Counted from the first letter of the stretch, positions 53,645 through 64,000 are shown. The stretch is DNA of 64,000 nt from a virus (IMGVR_UViG_3300031760_000008:12337-76336), one strand, 5' to 3'. Notes: generated by a model from the sequence alone, not told the origin. Numbers and translations: made by a program.

Positions 53645-54615
53645 CTAAACTGTCCAACCAGCAGCTTTTAATTCATTATATCCATCTAGATGTTCACATC
53701 TCTGTTTATATGTTTTTCCACTATTATCTGTACGAGTATTATAAGTGTAATATCCAAATATTGCTTCAAATACTTTATATGTACATGAACTAGCATTAAC
53801 ACACATTTTCATGATATTTGATAAAGAATCATCAGTTAAATTATAAGAACCATTAAACATATTTTGAATATTTGTAGCAGATGCAATATTATATATAGGT
53901 ATATTTGCAACAGAAGAATTTGCAAATAATCTATGTAAATTTACACAATTGCTAAAATCTAAATCAGGTCCATCTATCATACTATAACAATAAGTAAACA
54001 TATTTTGACAATTTTTAGCATTAATCATATTCAAATTAGATATAGTAGTTAAATTATTACAGCCATAAAACAAATTAGCTATATTATCTGCACTGTAAAG
54101 ATTTAATTCAGAAACCTCTATCAAATTTTCACAGCTACTAAGAAGTCCTTGAGCATTAATTATATGAGTAAAATCTATATTATAATTATATATAGTTAAA
54201 CTATTACAACGTGAAAAGAAGCTTGAAGCTTCTGTAGCATTAATCATTGATATATTTGCTATATTACTTAATTGAGAGCAACTTGCAAATAATCCACTTA
54301 CATCTATAGCATTATTCATACTAAGATTATTTACACTGACGATAGAACTTTGACAAAAAGCATAATGCATACACGAGTAATTTCGCTAACAGAAGTAGAA
54401 TCTTTCTCACTAATATCTATAATAAACCCTGGTAACATATATGGTAGATTAGATCTATTTATTATAGAATCTAAAGAAATTGATTCTGATGAAGATCCTT
54501 CTCCTAAATTACCTGTAACTCCATATATAGTAACTCCAGATTTTATATTACCTGGAGTTATATAAGCTATTTTTTGTCTTCTTATTTCTCTTAAATTATC
54601 TACTAATTTTGACAT
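53645..54615 (-). pseudogene. short paralog of BspA-LRR fibre tip protein, split by a frameshift (94 aa + 241 aa ORFs)
   Basis: 54615-54331 'ITPGNIKSGVTIYGVTGN' parallels N-terminus of 56339..58882; 54370-53645 carries F.NC.NL leucine-rich repeats and ends 'AAGWTV' like the 847-aa protein 'AKGWTIN'; 40-nt overlap in different frames. Confidence 0.55.
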
Positions 54616-54634
54616 TTATCTAACCACCTCTTTT

Positions 54635-60722: not shown

Positions 60723-63434
60723 TTATATTTCTCCTTCATATATACCAGTTATTCCTAGAATTGTTTCTCCTTTTTTAATTTTATCTGCTGTTAAGCCTAT
60801 TGCTTGAGCTAAGTCTTCATATGTTGTAGCTATACCTAATGAATTAGATCTAAGAATAAAATCATTAGTTCTTTTTAAATATAATTTTGAACCAGCTAAT
60901 GTAATATCTCCTGTAGTAGATGAAGTTGAACTACTTACATCAATTAATGTACCTACATATCTATCAATTCCTTTATAGAATACTTTTCCATAGGCTACAT
61001 CTGTTATGTCAGCAGTAGCATCTGTAACATTAAAGAAATAAAGGTTCCATTTATTGGTTTCATATCTAAAAAGACCTGATACTTTTAATTCTTCTTTCTG
61101 AGAATACTGACATATGGTAGTTGGAGGTTTTGCTGTAGCTTGTTGTAAGGTCTCTATAATAGGTAATTCTGTTGGTATTGAAACAGTTTCACTTGGGGTA
61201 AATGATGTACCATTTTTAGTTATATAAATAGGAAAATTTACTGTTTGAGTATCATATTTATTTCCTGAATATGCAATATTATAAACATCTCCTAAATAAT
61301 TAGTAAATTTAATATTCCAAAAATGATAATATCTTCGTATAGTACTTGAATAATTACTTGTTACTATTATAGTTCCAGATTCTCCTTCTCTACCTCCTGT
61401 TAAAGTATATTCTGTTCTATCTTGAGTTTTATTCTGAGCAGTTCCAACAGAAATTGATGTAGGAAAGTCAGCAAATTTAACAGTTTCATTTTTCATTACT
61501 AAAGCTAAATCTCCATCAGAACCAACCACTTCTTGAAGATCTTCTTCAGATTCATATACTGGTACTCCTTCTTTTACATTTCCTGTTACACCTAAAATAT
61601 TAACTCCTGATCTTATATTATTTGATATTATGTTAGGATCAATATTAGCATTTACAGCTGTAATATTAACTACATTAAAACCATTATAAGGACTATTTGG
61701 GGTTATAGATTGAGTGTTAATAGATGGTATAACATCTAAATTAGTTAAATTAGCAGCTATTACATTACCTTTAATACCTAAAATATTAGCTCCAGCTATT
61801 AATAAATTAGAAGTTAAACCTACAGCCTTAGCTGCTGCACCAAAAGGTATGCCGAGTTTCATTTTTCTATTTCCTTCAAACATCCAACTATCAGGCATCT
61901 CTTCAGCAGCTATCTGATTAGTACCAACTAAATAATTAGTAGACCCTCTTTTATAAGTATAAGCTTTAGTGCCTTGAGCAAATTCATAATTGTAATCAGC
62001 AGGATTATTAGGATTTTTAGAATATGAAAGTGAAGGTAAATTACCTACAATTAATTGACCATTTACATATGCTGTAACTCCATTTTTTATATTAATAGCT
62101 GTTGCATTAGCATCTGATGTAAATGTACCTGTTATATCTAAAACATTAGTACCTGCTCTAACTTTATCTGGAGTTAAATTAATTACATTAGCTATATCTG
62201 ATTCAGCAACTACATCAGTTATACTACATGTTTCATCCATAATAACAGGACTATAAATGTGTCTAGGAACTTCTATAAAATGTTGTCCTTGCATAGTAGT
62301 TTCAGATATATCATATATTTGTTCACCATCAGATATTCCTCTAGCATCAGATACAGTACCTACAATTCTTTCTCCATTAACATAAGCTACTCTATAATCA
62401 GGAATATCATTCGCATTTACTGGCATATATGTTCCTTTTTCTACATATGTATTTACTACATTGGTATCACCAGTTACACCTAAAATGGTTACACCTGATC
62501 TTATATTATTTGATGTTATATTAGGATCAATATCTGATGTAACCGCAGCTATATTAACTACATTAAAACCATTATAAGGACTATTTGGAGATATAGATTG
62601 AGTGTTAATAGAAGGTGTAACATCTAAATTAGTTAAATTAGCTGCTATTACATTACCTTCAATTCCTAAAATATTTTCTCCAAATTTTATTTTATCTGAA
62701 GTTAAATTTACTACATTAGCAATATCAGTTTGAGGTACATCCATAATTATCTTTGCATTATTTCTTAATACATACTGACCACTAAGATTGTTAGTAGTTA
62801 TTTCAATATTAGAACCAAGGTTTGCAACATTTTCTATAGATGAAAGCATAAACATACTACCATCTATTATAAAATAATGTGTACCAATTATTTTTTGACC
62901 ATTTACATAAGCAGTTTTATTACTTCCTATAATATCAATTGATGTAGCATTAGCATCTGATGTATAATTACCAGTAACGCCTAATATGTTTGTTCCTACT
63001 TTTATTTTATCAGCTGTTAAATTTACTTTATTAGCAATAATATTTTGATTTATAGATCCTTCTACATATATTTGAGAATTTTGTCTAAGTAACATATTCT
63101 GATTTGTAGTTACAGGAGATTCTATATTTATTTTTCCTTGAGAATATGTTATATTAGGATCTGTTATAGTTGTTTGTAAAGTATCTAAACCATCATCAGT
63201 TGTTACTACAGAACCATATATTTTTTCATTATTTACATAAGCTGATTTATTTAAAGCTATATCTGAGGAAGTAGCAGTAGCATCAGATTCATCAGCTTGA
63301 GGATCTAAAGTACCGGTTACTCCTAATATCTTAGTATTTTTTCTTATATTTCCAGGTAATAGGTTAGTATCTTTATCATCTTTGATATCATACATATTAA
63401 CCATCAATTTTTTATCGCTATCACCTTTACTCAT
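60723..63434 (-). CDS. large tail fibre protein (903 aa) with GxTILGITGTY-type repeats and an internal ~60-aa duplication
   Basis: Repeats 'NTKILGVTGTLDPQADESDATATSSDIALNKSAYVNNEKIYGS', 'IKVGTNILGVTGNYTSDANATSIDIIGSNKTAYVNGQKIIGT', C-terminal 'IKKGETILGITGIYEGEI'; no promoter motif between this gene and its neighbours (8-nt overlap upstream). Confidence 0.65.
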   Translation of the reverse strand: MSKGDSDKKLMVNMYDIKDDKDTNLLPGNIRKNTKILGVTGTLDPQADESDATATSSDIALNKSAYVNNEKIYGSVVTTDDGLDTLQTTITDPNITYSQGKINIESPVTTNQNMLLRQNSQIYVEGSINQNIIANKVNLTADKIKVGTNILGVTGNYTSDANATSIDIIGSNKTAYVNGQKIIGTHYFIIDGSMFMLSSIENVANLGSNIEITTNNLSGQYVLRNNAKIIMDVPQTDIANVVNLTSDKIKFGENILGIEGNVIAANLTNLDVTPSINTQSISPNSPYNGFNVVNIAAVTSDIDPNITSNNIRSGVTILGVTGDTNVVNTYVEKGTYMPVNANDIPDYRVAYVNGERIVGTVSDARGISDGEQIYDISETTMQGQHFIEVPRHIYSPVIMDETCSITDVVAESDIANVINLTPDKVRAGTNVLDITGTFTSDANATAINIKNGVTAYVNGQLIVGNLPSLSYSKNPNNPADYNYEFAQGTKAYTYKRGSTNYLVGTNQIAAEEMPDSWMFEGNRKMKLGIPFGAAAKAVGLTSNLLIAGANILGIKGNVIAANLTNLDVIPSINTQSITPNSPYNGFNVVNITAVNANIDPNIISNNIRSGVNILGVTGNVKEGVPVYESEEDLQEVVGSDGDLALVMKNETVKFADFPTSISVGTAQNKTQDRTEYTLTGGREGESGTIIVTSNYSSTIRRYYHFWNIKFTNYLGDVYNIAYSGNKYDTQTVNFPIYITKNGTSFTPSETVSIPTELPIIETLQQATAKPPTTICQYSQKEELKVSGLFRYETNKWNLYFFNVTDATADITDVAYGKVFYKGIDRYVGTLIDVSSSTSSTTGDITLAGSKLYLKRTNDFILRSNSLGIATTYEDLAQAIGLTADKIKKGETILGITGIYEGEI
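61630..61790. repeat. copy 1 of ~150-bp near-identical intragenic direct repeat (copy 2 at ~62521-62680)
   Basis: Both copies encode 'AANLTNLDV(T/I)PSINTQSI(S/T)PNSPYNGFNVVNI(A/T)AV..DPNI(T/I)SNNIRSGV(T/N)ILGVTG' within the 903-aa fibre gene. Confidence 0.6.
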
Positions 63435-64000
63435 TGATTCCTAATACCTCCTCTAAATTATTATTTATTTGATTTACCTCACTAGATGGAATTTCTCCTT
63501 CATATGTTCCAGTTATTCCCATAATAGTAACTCCTTTTTTAAGTACATCTGGAGTTAAACCAAATATTCTAGCTAAATTAGTTTGCTGTATATTTATTTG
63601 ATTATCAGCACTACTTAAAATAGCTTTAGTTTGATCAAATGATTGATTTATTGTTAAATACTCATAACTTAATAATTCACATTGATTAAATACTATATTA
63701 TTATTTGTATAAATATCCTTAGTACAATAATAAGAATCATTTCCAAAATATATTCCTGAATATTGATCTTCTGTTATAGATGGAGTTCCATTCAAGAATA
63801 AATCTGTATAAACAGTTAAATGAGGAGAACTTAAAATCATAGTATTATTTGATAGTGTAAATGTTAAATCTTCTGTATTATTCCATGTAAATATTATTGC
63901 TTGAGATTCATTATTATTAGGTCTCATATAAATAAGAAAATCTTTACCTTGTAAATCTATACCATCTAAATATTCTTTATGAAAAATTCTATTATCTGTC
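63427..64000 (-). CDS. C-terminal part of a further fibre protein (gene continues beyond window end)
   Basis: Frame open upstream of the first Met to the window edge; ends 'LKKGVTIMGITGTYEGEI...' like the 903-aa protein. Confidence 0.5.
   Translation of the reverse strand, partial: TDNRIFHKEYLDGIDLQGKDFLIYMRPNNNESQAIIFTWNNTEDLTFTLSNNTMILSSPHLTVYTDLFLNGTPSITEDQYSGIYFGNDSYYCTKDIYTNNNIVFNQCELLSYEYLTINQSFDQTKAILSSADNQINIQQTNLARIFGLTPDVLKKGVTIMGITGTYEGEIPSSEVNQINNNLEEVLGINE

What the first reader, a model, noticed from the sequence alone, without database searches (positions are those of the whole stretch)
53645..64000. Duplicated two-gene receptor-binding cassettes: 'GxTILGITGTY' repeat fibres alternating with BspA-type LRR tip proteins
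Five or six consecutive genes form a modular adsorption locus. The 903-aa and upstream partial proteins end with ...ILGITG(T/I)YEGEI. Two paralogous anchor-type proteins of 547 and 534 aa share the N-terminus MS(L/I)K.DL.YLEETK.LIKEAI..KGQ(E/D)I...(S/D)YVDKI.NIST. Each has its own identical promoter copy (ctaataatattttacataaaaata) and is followed by a protein combining the same repeat with a BspA-like leucine-rich-repeat domain ending in GWT. The recurring ~40-aa unit L(T/N)xDKIKxG.TILGITGTY.SDANATA.D(I/L)..GKTAYVNG.KI.GT occurs at least 15 times across five proteins and is not a repeat family I can name. LRR domains as phage receptor-binding tips are rare. The dual cassette suggests two receptor specificities, giving broadened or switchable host range.
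Basis: partly seen in the sequence, partly recalled or inferred. Interest (0 to 1): 0.8.

Follow-up and report, generated by a model that had tools for sequence, protein, structure and literature searches.

The report
Hypervariable fibre-gene cassettes of a rumen phage
This is part of a fast-evolving block of probable host-attachment fibre genes in a large uncultured gut phage, built from a very common but unnamed protein repeat and tipped with leucine-rich-repeat domains; the design principle is familiar, the building blocks are uncharacterised.

Summary
All genes lie on the minus strand of an uncultured myovirus-like phage with 27% G+C. A bipartite ~55-aa signature, (l.a.kIk.G.tILGvtGty)+(sDAtAt.DI..GKtAYVnG.kItGt), gives 21 significant hits in 7 ORFs, against 0.08 in shuffles and none elsewhere in the window. 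The 847-aa and 241-aa proteins are BspA/DUF285-type LRR solenoids.

Corrections:
- The locus continues at least 4.9 kb beyond the window, with more LRR and Kelch-like genes.
- There are three two-gene cassettes in the window, not two: 304+903, 547+847 and 534+94/241.
- The "promoter" is the reverse complement of the quoted string. It is the phage's general structural-gene promoter, with 17 copies on the coding strand only. In these four copies it directly follows a terminator hairpin.
- The second LRR gene is broken by a -1 frameshift at a recombination junction.

The locus is hypervariable: about 75% nucleotide identity against 96-97% in the flanks, with length and gene-content polymorphism. 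The repeat is in no Pfam or NCBIfam family and matches only unknown-function PHROGs, yet about 13,800 protein clusters carry it. In four unrelated phages or prophages it sits between tail or baseplate genes and the lysis genes or a pyocin-knob gene.

Best reading: modular receptor-binding fibres. This is inferred, not shown. It is a new variant of a known kind, of moderate interest.

The parts
63427..64000 (-). C-terminal 191 codons of a 304-aa 'class I' fibre-like protein. The gene starts about 341 nt beyond the window end. It has one B and one A motif, with ...IMGITGTYEGEI near the C-terminus.
   Evidence: One search lists the ORF. Searches give the full-length 304-aa homologues (98-99% identity) in L001 and L004 and the identical gene in L006, with N-terminus MAENDTNSTIMNKLDYLDNTKQQIRTALREKGQDI.
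60723..63434 (-). 903-aa 'class II' protein. It has an N-terminal helix followed directly by the A motif, 9 repeat-profile hits, and a unique C-terminal ~280 aa ending in an A motif (ILGITGIYEGEI). It overlaps the preceding gene by 8 nt.
   Evidence: PHROGs 38337, 13589 and 35834, all of unknown function. Allelic forms of 610 aa (L004) and 1114 aa (L001).
61582..62720 (-). Segmental duplication inside the 903-aa gene. Two 251-nt copies (61582-61832 and 62470-62720) are 84% identical and 888 nt apart. This accounts for the 293-aa length difference from the 610-aa allele.
   Evidence: family D4. In one search, L004 5970-6220 aligns to both copies.
60572..60630 (-). Intrinsic terminator hairpin (-15.2 kcal/mol, z -4.8) with a U-run, followed directly by the promoter motif TATTTTTATGTAAAATATTAATAG. 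The promoter core starts 45 nt before the ATG of the 547-aa gene.
58898..60541 (-). 547-aa 'class I' protein. It has a two-helix N-terminal module (residues 3-44), a small beta-barrel domain, and four ~100-aa beta-rich units carrying the A/B signatures.
56339..58882 (-). 847-aa 'class II' protein. It has an N-terminal helix, one full A+B unit, a small beta domain, an A motif, and then a ~620-aa BspA/DUF285-type LRR solenoid with a C-terminal cap ending in GWTIN. It lies 15 nt after the 547-aa gene, in the same operon.
56270..56325 (-). Terminator hairpin (-14.0 kcal/mol, z -6.8) with a U-run, followed directly by the promoter motif. The core starts 45 nt before the ATG of the 534-aa gene. The stem shows a compensatory change in sister phage L004.
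54635..56239 (-). 534-aa 'class I' protein. Its N-terminal module is paralogous to that of the 547-aa protein. It has a unique ~200-aa domain and then units with A/B signatures.
   Evidence: The allele in L001 is 661 aa with a ~120-aa insertion.
54331..54615 (-). 94-aa ORF. Its first 81 residues equal the N-terminus of a 443-aa class II protein in the sister phage (88% identity), and it carries one A motif. It runs into a recombination junction at 54371/54372 and stops 13 codons later.
53645..54370 (-). 241-aa DUF285/BspA-type LRR C-terminal module ending in GWTV. It is in the -1 frame relative to the 94-aa ORF and has no Shine-Dalgarno sequence of its own. This 729-bp segment replaces 3171 bp (three genes) of the sister phage. 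One extra T in the T5 run at 54355-54359 would give a continuous 323-aa ORF.
   Evidence: DUF285, 35.6 bits.. No close homologue in the 5.8e9-protein database.
52569..53615 (-). Family-2 glycosyltransferase (348 aa). It is co-transcribed with the third cassette, with no terminator in between. It is 99% identical in a phage whose fibre genes are only 65-71% identical, so it marks the conserved flank.
52514..52565 (-). Terminator hairpin (-14.8 kcal/mol, z -5.9) plus promoter motif. It closes the third cassette operon and starts the next, unrelated operon.

Best explanation
The region is the downstream part of a hypervariable fibre-gene locus spanning at least ~15 kb in the same genome. The phage is uncultured, contractile-tailed and low in G+C. 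Related contigs reach ~205-215 kb and come from gut metagenomes. I believe two of the samples are cow rumen, from memory of project PRJEB21624.

The locus is a series of self-contained operons. Each is bounded by an intrinsic terminator followed directly by the phage's general structural-gene promoter (core GTAAAATATTA). Each in-window operon starts with a 'class I' gene. Its product has a two-helix N-terminal module, MS.K.DL.YLEETK.LIKEAI..KGQ.I...F..YV.KI.NI. A tightly coupled 'class II' gene follows. Its product has a single N-terminal helix running straight into the A motif.

Both classes are strings of ~100-residue beta-rich beads. Each bead carries a bipartite signature: A is l.a.kIk.G.tILGvtGty and B is sDAtAt.DI..GKtAYVnG.kItGt. 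Two of the three class II genes in the window carry a BspA/DUF285 LRR solenoid as the distal module: the 847-aa protein and the broken 94+241 gene. The 903-aa protein has a different C-terminal domain.

Inferred mechanism:
- The proteins are virion fibres made late together with head and tail proteins.
- The conserved N-terminal modules dock the fibre to the particle or to its partner.
- The beads form the shaft, and the LRR or other distal domains bind host-surface ligands.
- Several cassettes give several binding specificities.
- Recombination at the conserved promoter and N-terminal-module sequence, and between repeat units, swaps, lengthens, shortens or breaks cassettes.

Shown here: gene anatomy, operon structure, folds, hypervariability, family size, and positional association with tail modules in other phages. 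Inferred: virion location, the class I/II partnership, receptor binding and multi-specificity.
For: Phage context:
- The window carries a tail sheath, prohead protease, major capsid and tail lysin. The capsid protein is about 30% identical to those of large Firmicutes myoviruses.

Repeat:
- 21 hits against 0.08 in shuffles, and none elsewhere in the window.

Operons:
- Four hairpin-plus-promoter units, with compensatory stem changes between phages.
- The promoter core lies on the coding strand only, 17 times, including before the protease and capsid genes. This suggests co-expression with structural genes.
- Class I and class II genes alternate with gaps of -8, 15 and 19 nt.

Hypervariability:
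- Against L001, the flanks are 96-97% identical at nucleotide level and the flanking proteins 96-99%. The fibre genes are ~75% identical at nucleotide level and 65-71% at protein level.
- Alleles are 610/903/1114 aa and 534/661 aa. A Hint-domain gene is extra in L001. L004 has 443+100+578 aa where the window has 94/241.

Position of the motif family in other genomes:
- Dulem virus 35 ('tail protein', just before a pyocin-knob gene) and Oscillospiraceae phage NatCom_27610 (after 'tail protein' genes, before the holin).
- Veillonella seminalis and Cohnella laeviribosi isolate genomes (after baseplate wedge and tail fibre genes, before the endolysin).

Domain partners:
- The repeat co-occurs with lectin-like or other binding C-termini elsewhere: FGE-sulfatase, Lcl_C and DUF285.
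- The class I module is N-terminal in 59 of 60 carriers.
- None of the proteins has a hydrophobic signal-peptide-like N-terminus (sequences). They therefore differ from secreted bacterial BspA adhesins.
Against: - There are no virion proteomics, imaging or binding data for any member.
- In this genome the locus lies upstream of the head module, about 45 kb from the baseplate-like genes at the other end of the window. Genuine tail fibres could be encoded elsewhere.
- The monomer AF2 model shows beads on a string (pTM 0.32) rather than an obviously trimeric fibre fold. No solved fibre structure matches it.
- The class I/II partnership is inferred from gene order only.
- One of the two in-window LRR genes is frameshifted.
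Confidence: 0.6

Rival explanations
1. The proteins are virion appendages other than receptor-binding tail fibres. They could be head, neck or collar fibres, or a loose 'fibre cloud'. Such appendages would mediate reversible, low-specificity adhesion to host cells, other bacteria, plant fibre or mucus. The committed receptor-binding proteins would be encoded next to the baseplate.
For: - The locus sits directly upstream of the portal, protease and capsid block and far from the baseplate-like genes.
- BspA-type LRR proteins are general adhesins in bacteria (names).
- A jumbo-phage precedent exists. Goslar DUF7941 paralogues have an N-terminal module plus carbohydrate-binding or LRR domains, and a 'fiber cloud' has been proposed for them (bioRxiv 10.64898/2026.04.21.720040).
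Against: In four smaller phages or prophages the same A/B-motif proteins lie at the distal end of the tail module. In large myoviruses gene position is a weak guide to virion location.
Confidence: 0.22
2. The proteins are non-structural. They could be phage-encoded adhesins or surface-modifying factors displayed or released by the infected cell (morons). They might act together with the co-transcribed glycosyltransferase, for example in superinfection exclusion or in changing the host surface.
For: - A GT2 glycosyltransferase with a weak GtrB-like PHROG match lies in the third operon.
- BspA homologues are bacterial surface proteins.
Against: - The N-termini show no signal peptide or lipobox.
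- The genes share the promoter used by the capsid and protease genes.
- The motif family is embedded in tail modules elsewhere.
- The pattern of hypervariability with conserved N-termini is typical of virion receptor-binding proteins.
Confidence: 0.08
3. Much of the apparent modularity is an artefact. On this view the locus is a metagenome mis-assembly across repeats, or a decaying array of pseudogenes of no current function.
For: - The repeats are a known assembly hazard.
- One gene is frameshifted exactly at a junction.
- The 241-aa module has no close relative in the database.
Against: - An ENA contig of 105.8 kb is 100% identical to the window over 17.7 kb, including the junction. The 847-aa protein is on record from three sources.
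- All other genes are long intact ORFs with Shine-Dalgarno sites, promoters and terminators.
- DNA copies of the repeat are only 60-78% identical, too diverged to confuse an assembler.
- Sister phages keep intact alleles.
Confidence: 0.05

Closest known systems
PHROG families 38337, 13589 and 35834 ('unknown function')
   Same: They give direct profile matches to the 903-, 547- and 534-aa proteins (E down to 5e-31). They also match the A/B-motif proteins of the Veillonella and Cohnella prophages.
   Different: They carry no annotation, no Pfam or NCBIfam counterpart and no solved structure. They name the family without explaining it.
Multi-RBP phages with tandem receptor-binding proteins that share a conserved N-terminal anchor and differ distally. 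Examples from my own knowledge, not tested here: Klebsiella phage PhiK64-1, Escherichia phage CBA120 TSP1-4, and SP6/K1-5 dual tailspikes.
   Same: - Tandem paralogous genes.
- Conserved N-terminus with variable distal domains.
- Local hypervariability and cassette exchange between close relatives.
   Different: - No sequence or fold relation to those anchors or to beta-helix tailspikes was found.
- Here the unit is a two-gene operon (class I plus class II) with its own terminator and promoter.
- The distal domains are LRR solenoids rather than depolymerases.
[quoted passage not shown]
   Same: They share the repeat consensus (..MF.NC.NL..I..), and profile or PDB sequence hits and the predicted solenoid fold agree.
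   Different: - The phage proteins lack a signal peptide or cell-wall/T9SS anchor.
- They carry a phage-specific N-terminal helix and A/B units.
- They end in a conserved ..AGW.. cap.
- The 847-aa protein itself does not reach any Pfam model at E<=0.1.
Goslar (Chimalliviridae) DUF7941 paralogue family (bioRxiv 10.64898/2026.04.21.720040)
   Same: Several paralogues in a jumbo phage share an N-terminal module followed by carbohydrate-binding, hydrolase or LRR domains. They are proposed as host-recognition fibres.
   Different: The paper says DUF7941 is exclusive to chimalliviruses. No similarity to the class I module was tested or seen here. The present phage has a T4-like prohead protease and capsid set and a Firmicutes-like affinity.
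Distal genes of tail-fibre modules in myovirus-type prophages of Firmicutes and Negativicutes and in small gut siphophages
   Same: The same A/B-motif proteins occupy the last positions before the lysis cassette or a pyocin-knob gene.
   Different: There the proteins are short (135-330 aa, 1-2 motifs) and single or paired. Here they are expanded to up to 9 profile hits per protein, multiplied into several operons, and fused to LRR domains.

Membership tests
BspA-type LRR (Pfam clan LRR: DUF285 PF03382 / LRR_5 PF13306) | Profile match above the curated gathering score | tested here: met
   The 241-aa ORF scores 35.6 bits on DUF285 against a cut-off of 25. The 847-aa protein has no Pfam hit at E<=0.1. 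Its 30-35%-identical homologues carry PF13306/PF03382, and phmmer hits the BspA-type structure 4fs7 at E 9.7e-11.
BspA-type LRR (Pfam clan LRR: DUF285 PF03382 / LRR_5 PF13306) | Tandem ~22-27-residue repeats with the ..F.nC.nL..i.. signature, forming a curved solenoid | tested here: met
   The consensus of 36 homologues shows at least 12 repeats of MFxNCxNLxxI. The AF2 model has pLDDT 84 and pTM 0.71. All top Foldseek PDB hits are LRR solenoids, including 4fs7, 4gt6 and 4h09.
BspA-type LRR (Pfam clan LRR: DUF285 PF03382 / LRR_5 PF13306) | Export to the cell surface through a signal peptide or anchor, as in the bacterial surface proteins | tested here: not met
   The N-termini MSNSSLYNKLYNINQERIQK... 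and MHYAFCQSS... have no hydrophobic leader (by inspection). The phage proteins therefore share the domain, not the bacterial architecture.
Phage tail fibre / receptor-binding protein (functional class) | Component of the virion, located on the tail | not testable with these tools
   No cultured member and no proteomics or imaging data exist.
Phage tail fibre / receptor-binding protein (functional class) | Encoded in or next to the baseplate/tail module | tested here: inconclusive
   Not met in this genome: the locus is upstream of the portal, protease and capsid genes and ~45 kb from the baseplate-like genes. Met for the motif family in four other genomes.
Phage tail fibre / receptor-binding protein (functional class) | Conserved N-terminal attachment module with variable distal part, and a locus far more divergent than its flanks between close relatives | tested here: met
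   The class I module is shared by the 304-, 547-, 534- and 646-aa proteins and is N-terminal in 59 of 60 carriers. Flanks are 96-97% identical at nucleotide level against ~75% for the locus, and gene content varies.
Phage tail fibre / receptor-binding protein (functional class) | Elongated, usually trimeric, fibrous fold | tested here: inconclusive
Named fibre or adhesin repeat families in Pfam/NCBIfam (e.g. phage fibre repeats, collagen-like, Listeria-Bacteroides repeat) | Any profile match to the A/B repeat | tested here: not met
   There was no Pfam-A hit at E<=0.1 and no meaningful NCBIfam hit for the 166-, 903-, 547- and 534-aa proteins. All 120 listed homologues have no precomputed Pfam domain.
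PHROG 38337 / 13589 / 35834 | Profile match | tested here: met
   E values of 2e-25, 5.5e-31 and 3.4e-11. All three families are annotated 'unknown function'.

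The most novel reading that the evidence does not exclude
The A/B-signature bead may be a previously undescribed and very widespread fibre-shaft domain, found in about 13,800 protein clusters at 50% identity with up to 20 profile-matched stretches per protein. 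It has no solved structural relative. In this phage lineage it may work as a plug-and-play two-component system. A class I protein would dock through its two-helix N-module and recruit a class II protein carrying an interchangeable tip (BspA-LRR, Kelch-like or other). Each pair is packaged as a portable terminator-promoter-bounded operon that recombines between phages. LRR solenoids would then be genuine primary receptor-binding domains of tailed phages.
Probability: 0.3. Interest if true: 0.7.

Novelty: new variant of a known kind. Interest (0 to 1): 0.5.

Why it matters
If these are receptor-binding fibres, three things follow.

1. A repeat present in roughly 14,000 protein clusters from gut and environmental phages and prophages would gain a functional label. 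A Pfam-type model would improve annotation of tail modules in Firmicutes-type phages.
2. BspA/DUF285 LRR solenoids would join the short list of receptor-binding folds of tailed phages. That gives a handle for host prediction of uncultured rumen and gut jumbo phages. For example, recombinant LRR tips could be used to pull down or sort the host.
3. The operon-sized cassettes have conserved 5' handles. They are a clear natural example of modular host-range evolution and a possible scaffold for engineering.

If they are only accessory adhesins, the finding is an ordinary hypervariable phage locus.

Tried and rejected
- Megablast of the 10.4-kb region against GenBank phages found no match.
- tblastn of the 547-aa protein against the same collection at E<=1e-5 found no match. 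Only a consensus double repeat found 8 gut-metagenome phage records.
- Pfam and NCBIfam gave nothing for the repeat proteins.
- PDB sequence search with the 547-aa protein gave nothing.
- A triple beta-helix or beta-spiral reading of the repeat is not supported by the monomer model (short helix plus small beta units). An oligomeric fold could not be tested.
- A full-text literature search for the motif strings found 0 papers. 'BspA-like' plus phage plus receptor-binding protein also found 0 papers.
- A search for the donor of the 241-aa LRR module found only three weak hits at 27-29% identity, so its origin is unresolved.
- The idea that the promoter copies are cassette-specific duplications was rejected, because the core motif is genome-wide on the coding strand.
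- A simple deletion as the origin of the 94/241 junction was rejected. The 729 bp are not homologous to the replaced 3171 bp, and the LRR is only 29% identical to the 578-aa LRR.
- A canonical -1 slippery heptamer at the frameshift is absent (reading).
- The sigma-70 and terminator consensus scans were uninformative in this AT-rich DNA.

Full report
**Context**

The window has 23-34% G+C and strongly negative GC skew. Practically all genes lie on the minus strand. PHROG profiles identify a tail sheath (20621-22204), a prohead protease (43232-44698), a major capsid protein (41591-43069) and a tail protein with an M23-type lysin (5712-7709). The capsid protein is about 30% identical to those of large Firmicutes myoviruses: Listeria LIS04, Streptococcus GXN1 and Bacillus SP-15. 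There are seven tRNA genes.

An ENA metagenome contig of 105.8 kb (L006) is 100% identical to window 46339-64000 and extends it by 4.9 kb. Related proteins lie on contigs of up to 205-215 kb. Two of the samples belong, from my memory of the project number PRJEB21624, to cow-rumen data sets. The object is therefore an uncultured, probably jumbo, gut phage. No GenBank phage matches the region at DNA level.

**Check of the observation**

The ORFs are as described but on the minus strand.

*The repeat.* A profile from seven units finds 21 significant stretches: nine in the 903-aa protein, five in 547, three in 534, two in 847, and one each in the 94-aa and 166-aa ORFs. Eight are full A+B units and thirteen are halves. 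Shuffled proteins give 0.08 on average, and the other 55 minus-strand ORF segments of the window give none.

The signature is bipartite. A is l.a.kIk.G.tILGvtGty and B is sDAtAt.DI..GKtAYVnG.kItGt. It recurs about every 100 residues rather than in tight tandem. At DNA level the copies are only 60-78% identical, so they are old.

*The shared N-terminus.* The N-terminus shared by the 547- and 534-aa proteins is real. It is also present in the upstream gene. That gene's 166-aa in-window ORF is the C-terminal half of a 304-aa protein that starts beyond the window.

*The LRR assignment holds.*
- The 241-aa ORF hits DUF285 above threshold.
- The 847-aa protein hits the BspA-type structure 4fs7 and TpLRR.
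- Its AF2 model (pLDDT 84, pTM 0.71) matches only LRR solenoids.

**The promoter**

The quoted string is the plus-strand complement. On the coding strand the element is TATTTTTATGTAAAATATTATTAG. In each of its four copies it is immediately preceded by a different stable hairpin. These have free energies of -14 to -15.7 kcal/mol and z-scores of -4.8 to -6.8, and the U-run of each hairpin is the 5' part of the motif. Between sister phages the stems keep pairing through compensatory changes, for example AGCTTGAGA/TCTCAAGCT against AGCCTGAGA/TCTCAGGCT. These are therefore intrinsic terminators placed directly upstream of a promoter.

The core GTAAAATATTA occurs 17 times on the minus strand and never on the plus strand. 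Most copies lie 25-50 nt upstream of start codons with a Shine-Dalgarno sequence, including those of the prohead protease, the major capsid protein and several tail-region genes. It is thus the phage's general promoter for this structural region. From my own knowledge it resembles a T4-late-type -10-only promoter. It is not a cassette-specific duplication, but it does suggest that the cassettes are expressed together with virion genes. This is an inference.

**Anatomy of the locus**

Window and L006 together give this operon order, where T/P marks a terminator followed directly by a promoter:

| Operon | Genes |
|---|---|
| 1 | partial LRR protein + 646-aa protein (class I N-module fused directly to a DUF285 LRR) |
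| T/P | |
| 2 | 82 aa + 493-aa Kelch-like protein |
| T/P | |
| 3 | 304 + 903 |
| T/P | |
| 4 | 547 + 847 (LRR) |
| T/P | |
| 5 | 534 + 94/241 (LRR) + GT2 glycosyltransferase |
| T/P | |
| 6 | unrelated small genes |

Two kinds of N-terminus alternate.
- Class I (304, 547, 534, 646) has the two-helix module L.YL..TK..I..AI..KGQ.I...F..Y...I.NI.
- Class II (903, 847, 94, 493) has one helix running straight into an A motif.

In the three in-window pairs the promoter core starts exactly 45 nt before the class I ATG. The class II gene follows at -8, 15 or 19 nt. The promoter, 5'UTR and first ~45 codons of 547 and 534 are 77-78% identical at DNA level, which provides a recombination handle. A profile of the class I module finds it at the N-terminus in 59 of 60 carriers among the proteins fetched, combined either with repeats or with LRRs. 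None of the proteins has a signal-peptide-like N-terminus.

**Structure**

**Hypervariability**

Three related phages were compared.

- *L001.* The flanking proteins are 96-99% identical to the window's: glycosyltransferase 99%, the next two genes 96-97%, the 304-aa C-terminus 99%. Across the fibre genes identity falls to ~75% at nucleotide level and 65-71% at protein level. The 903-aa gene is replaced by a 1114-aa allele and the 534-aa gene by a 661-aa allele. There is an extra 520-aa gene with a class-I-like N-terminus and a C-terminal Hint domain, and a different third cassette of 463 + 102 + 578-aa DUF285 LRR.
- *L004.* It is 97.9% identical over 7.5 kb. It has a 610-aa allele of the 903-aa gene. 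The difference corresponds to an 888-bp segmental duplication bounded by 251-nt repeats that are 84% identical.
- *The third cassette in L004.* After the 534-aa gene, L004 has 443 + 100 + 578-aa (LRR) genes. In the window these 3171 bp are replaced by 729 unrelated bp that are exactly the 241-aa LRR ORF. The junction (54371/54372) lies after codon ~81 of the 443-type gene and in the middle of an LRR unit, one base out of frame.
- *The frameshift.* One extra T in the T5 run at 54355-54359 would give a continuous 323-aa class II-LRR protein. The 241-aa module has no close relative in the 5.8e9-protein database. In this genome the second LRR tip is therefore a frameshifted recombinant: a pseudogene, or expressed only through slippage or homopolymer variation.

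**How widespread the repeat is, and where it sits**

The eight-unit profile finds 13,847 cluster representatives at E<=1e-3 among 1.84e9 proteins, and 810 at E<=1e-30, with up to 20 matched stretches per protein. Large carriers end in FGE-sulfatase-like, Lcl_C or DUF285 domains. In GTDB genomes 277 loci were confirmed. Most are Firmicutes MAGs, but they include isolates of Veillonella, Cohnella, Paenibacillus and Chengkuizengella.

In four independent genomes the A/B-motif protein lies at the distal end of the tail module:
- Dulem virus 35, annotated 'tail protein', just before a pyocin-knob gene.
- Oscillospiraceae phage NatCom_27610, after the 'tail protein' genes and before the holin and endolysin.
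- The Veillonella seminalis prophage, after baseplate-wedge and tail-fibre genes and before the endolysin.
- The Cohnella laeviribosi prophage, in the same arrangement.

This is the best available evidence that the family belongs to tail-fibre or receptor-binding apparatus.

**Interpretation**

The most likely reading (about 0.6) is a multi-cassette host-recognition fibre locus.
- The class I N-modules act as docking elements.
- The A/B beads form the shaft.
- LRR or other distal domains act as binding tips.
- Recombination at conserved handles and between repeats drives the variation.

Virion location, the class I/II partnership and ligand binding are inferred, not shown. Rivals:
- Accessory head, neck or 'cloud' fibres (about 0.2). 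This is favoured by the position next to the head module and by the Goslar DUF7941 precedent.
- Non-structural adhesins or surface modifiers (about 0.08).
- Artefact or decay (about 0.05).

**Comparison and novelty**

The design principle is well known from multi-RBP phages: tandem paralogous receptor-binding genes with conserved N-termini and variable tips. BspA/DUF285 genes have been annotated in jumbo phages, for example vB_VhaM_pir03 (PMC7765460), and LRR domains follow the DUF7941 module in Goslar.

Three things are not described in the sources I could search.
- The A/B repeat itself has no Pfam or NCBIfam family, matches only 'unknown function' PHROGs, has no solved structural relative, and gives no literature hit for the motif strings.
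- The class I/class II two-gene operon format has not been described.
- LRR solenoids as the distal module of these fibres have not been described.

I rate it a new variant of a known kind, with interest 0.5.

Noticed in passing
window 54355-54372: The -1 frameshift between the 94-aa and 241-aa ORFs lies 12-16 nt downstream of a recombination junction and at a T5 run. Adding one T gives a continuous 323-aa class II + LRR ORF. This could be a pseudogene, a slippage site or homopolymer phase variation.
   Followed up: partly
whole window, minus strand (e.g. 44763-44773, 43152-43162, 16038-16048, 5283-5293, 2701-2711, 108-118): The 11-mer GTAAAATATTA occurs 17 times on the coding strand and never on the other strand. 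Most copies lie 25-50 nt upstream of start codons, including those of the protease and capsid genes. It is a phage-specific promoter consensus resembling a -10-only late promoter.
   Followed up: partly
window 52569-53615: A family-2 glycosyltransferase (weak GtrB-like PHROG match) is co-transcribed with the third fibre cassette. It is 99% conserved where the fibre genes are 65-71% identical. It might glycosylate the fibres or modify the host surface.
   Followed up: no
L001 8348-9910: A sister phage carries an extra 520-aa gene between the 1114-aa and 549-aa genes. It has a class-I-like N-terminus and a C-terminal Hint (PT-HINT/intein-type) domain with nothing after it. The gene is absent from the window.
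   Followed up: no
L006 1-4440 (same genome, beyond window position 64000): The locus continues upstream with a partial LRR protein, a 646-aa protein with the class I module fused directly to a DUF285 LRR ending in AGWKY, an 82-aa gene and a 493-aa Kelch-like protein with a class II N-terminus. The genome therefore has at least four LRR genes.
   Followed up: partly
window 61582-61832 and 62470-62720: A 251-nt direct repeat (84% identical, 888 nt apart) inside the 903-aa gene marks a segmental duplication. It explains the 610-, 903- and 1114-aa alleles in related phages.
   Followed up: yes
window 30323-36073: Seven tRNA genes (Gln, Cys, Trp, Tyr, Ser x2, Pro) lie on the coding strand between the head and tail gene blocks.
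   Followed up: no
L004 390-818 and L001 1238-2356: Further upstream in sister phages are genes that start MKVKFSRCNSN.L.NVPQVDGQ..FVKD..E.Y.DVGNNR.KV. From memory this N-terminal motif resembles tail-fibre N-termini of Firmicutes phages. It suggests the fibre locus is even longer.
   Followed up: no
Genome-contig loci L009, L037, L085: Several 'uncultured Bacilli bacterium' MAG contigs of 205-220 kb carry relatives of the 547-aa protein. They are probably jumbo-phage genomes binned with their hosts. This is a weak hint that the host is a low-G+C member of the class Bacilli.
   Followed up: no
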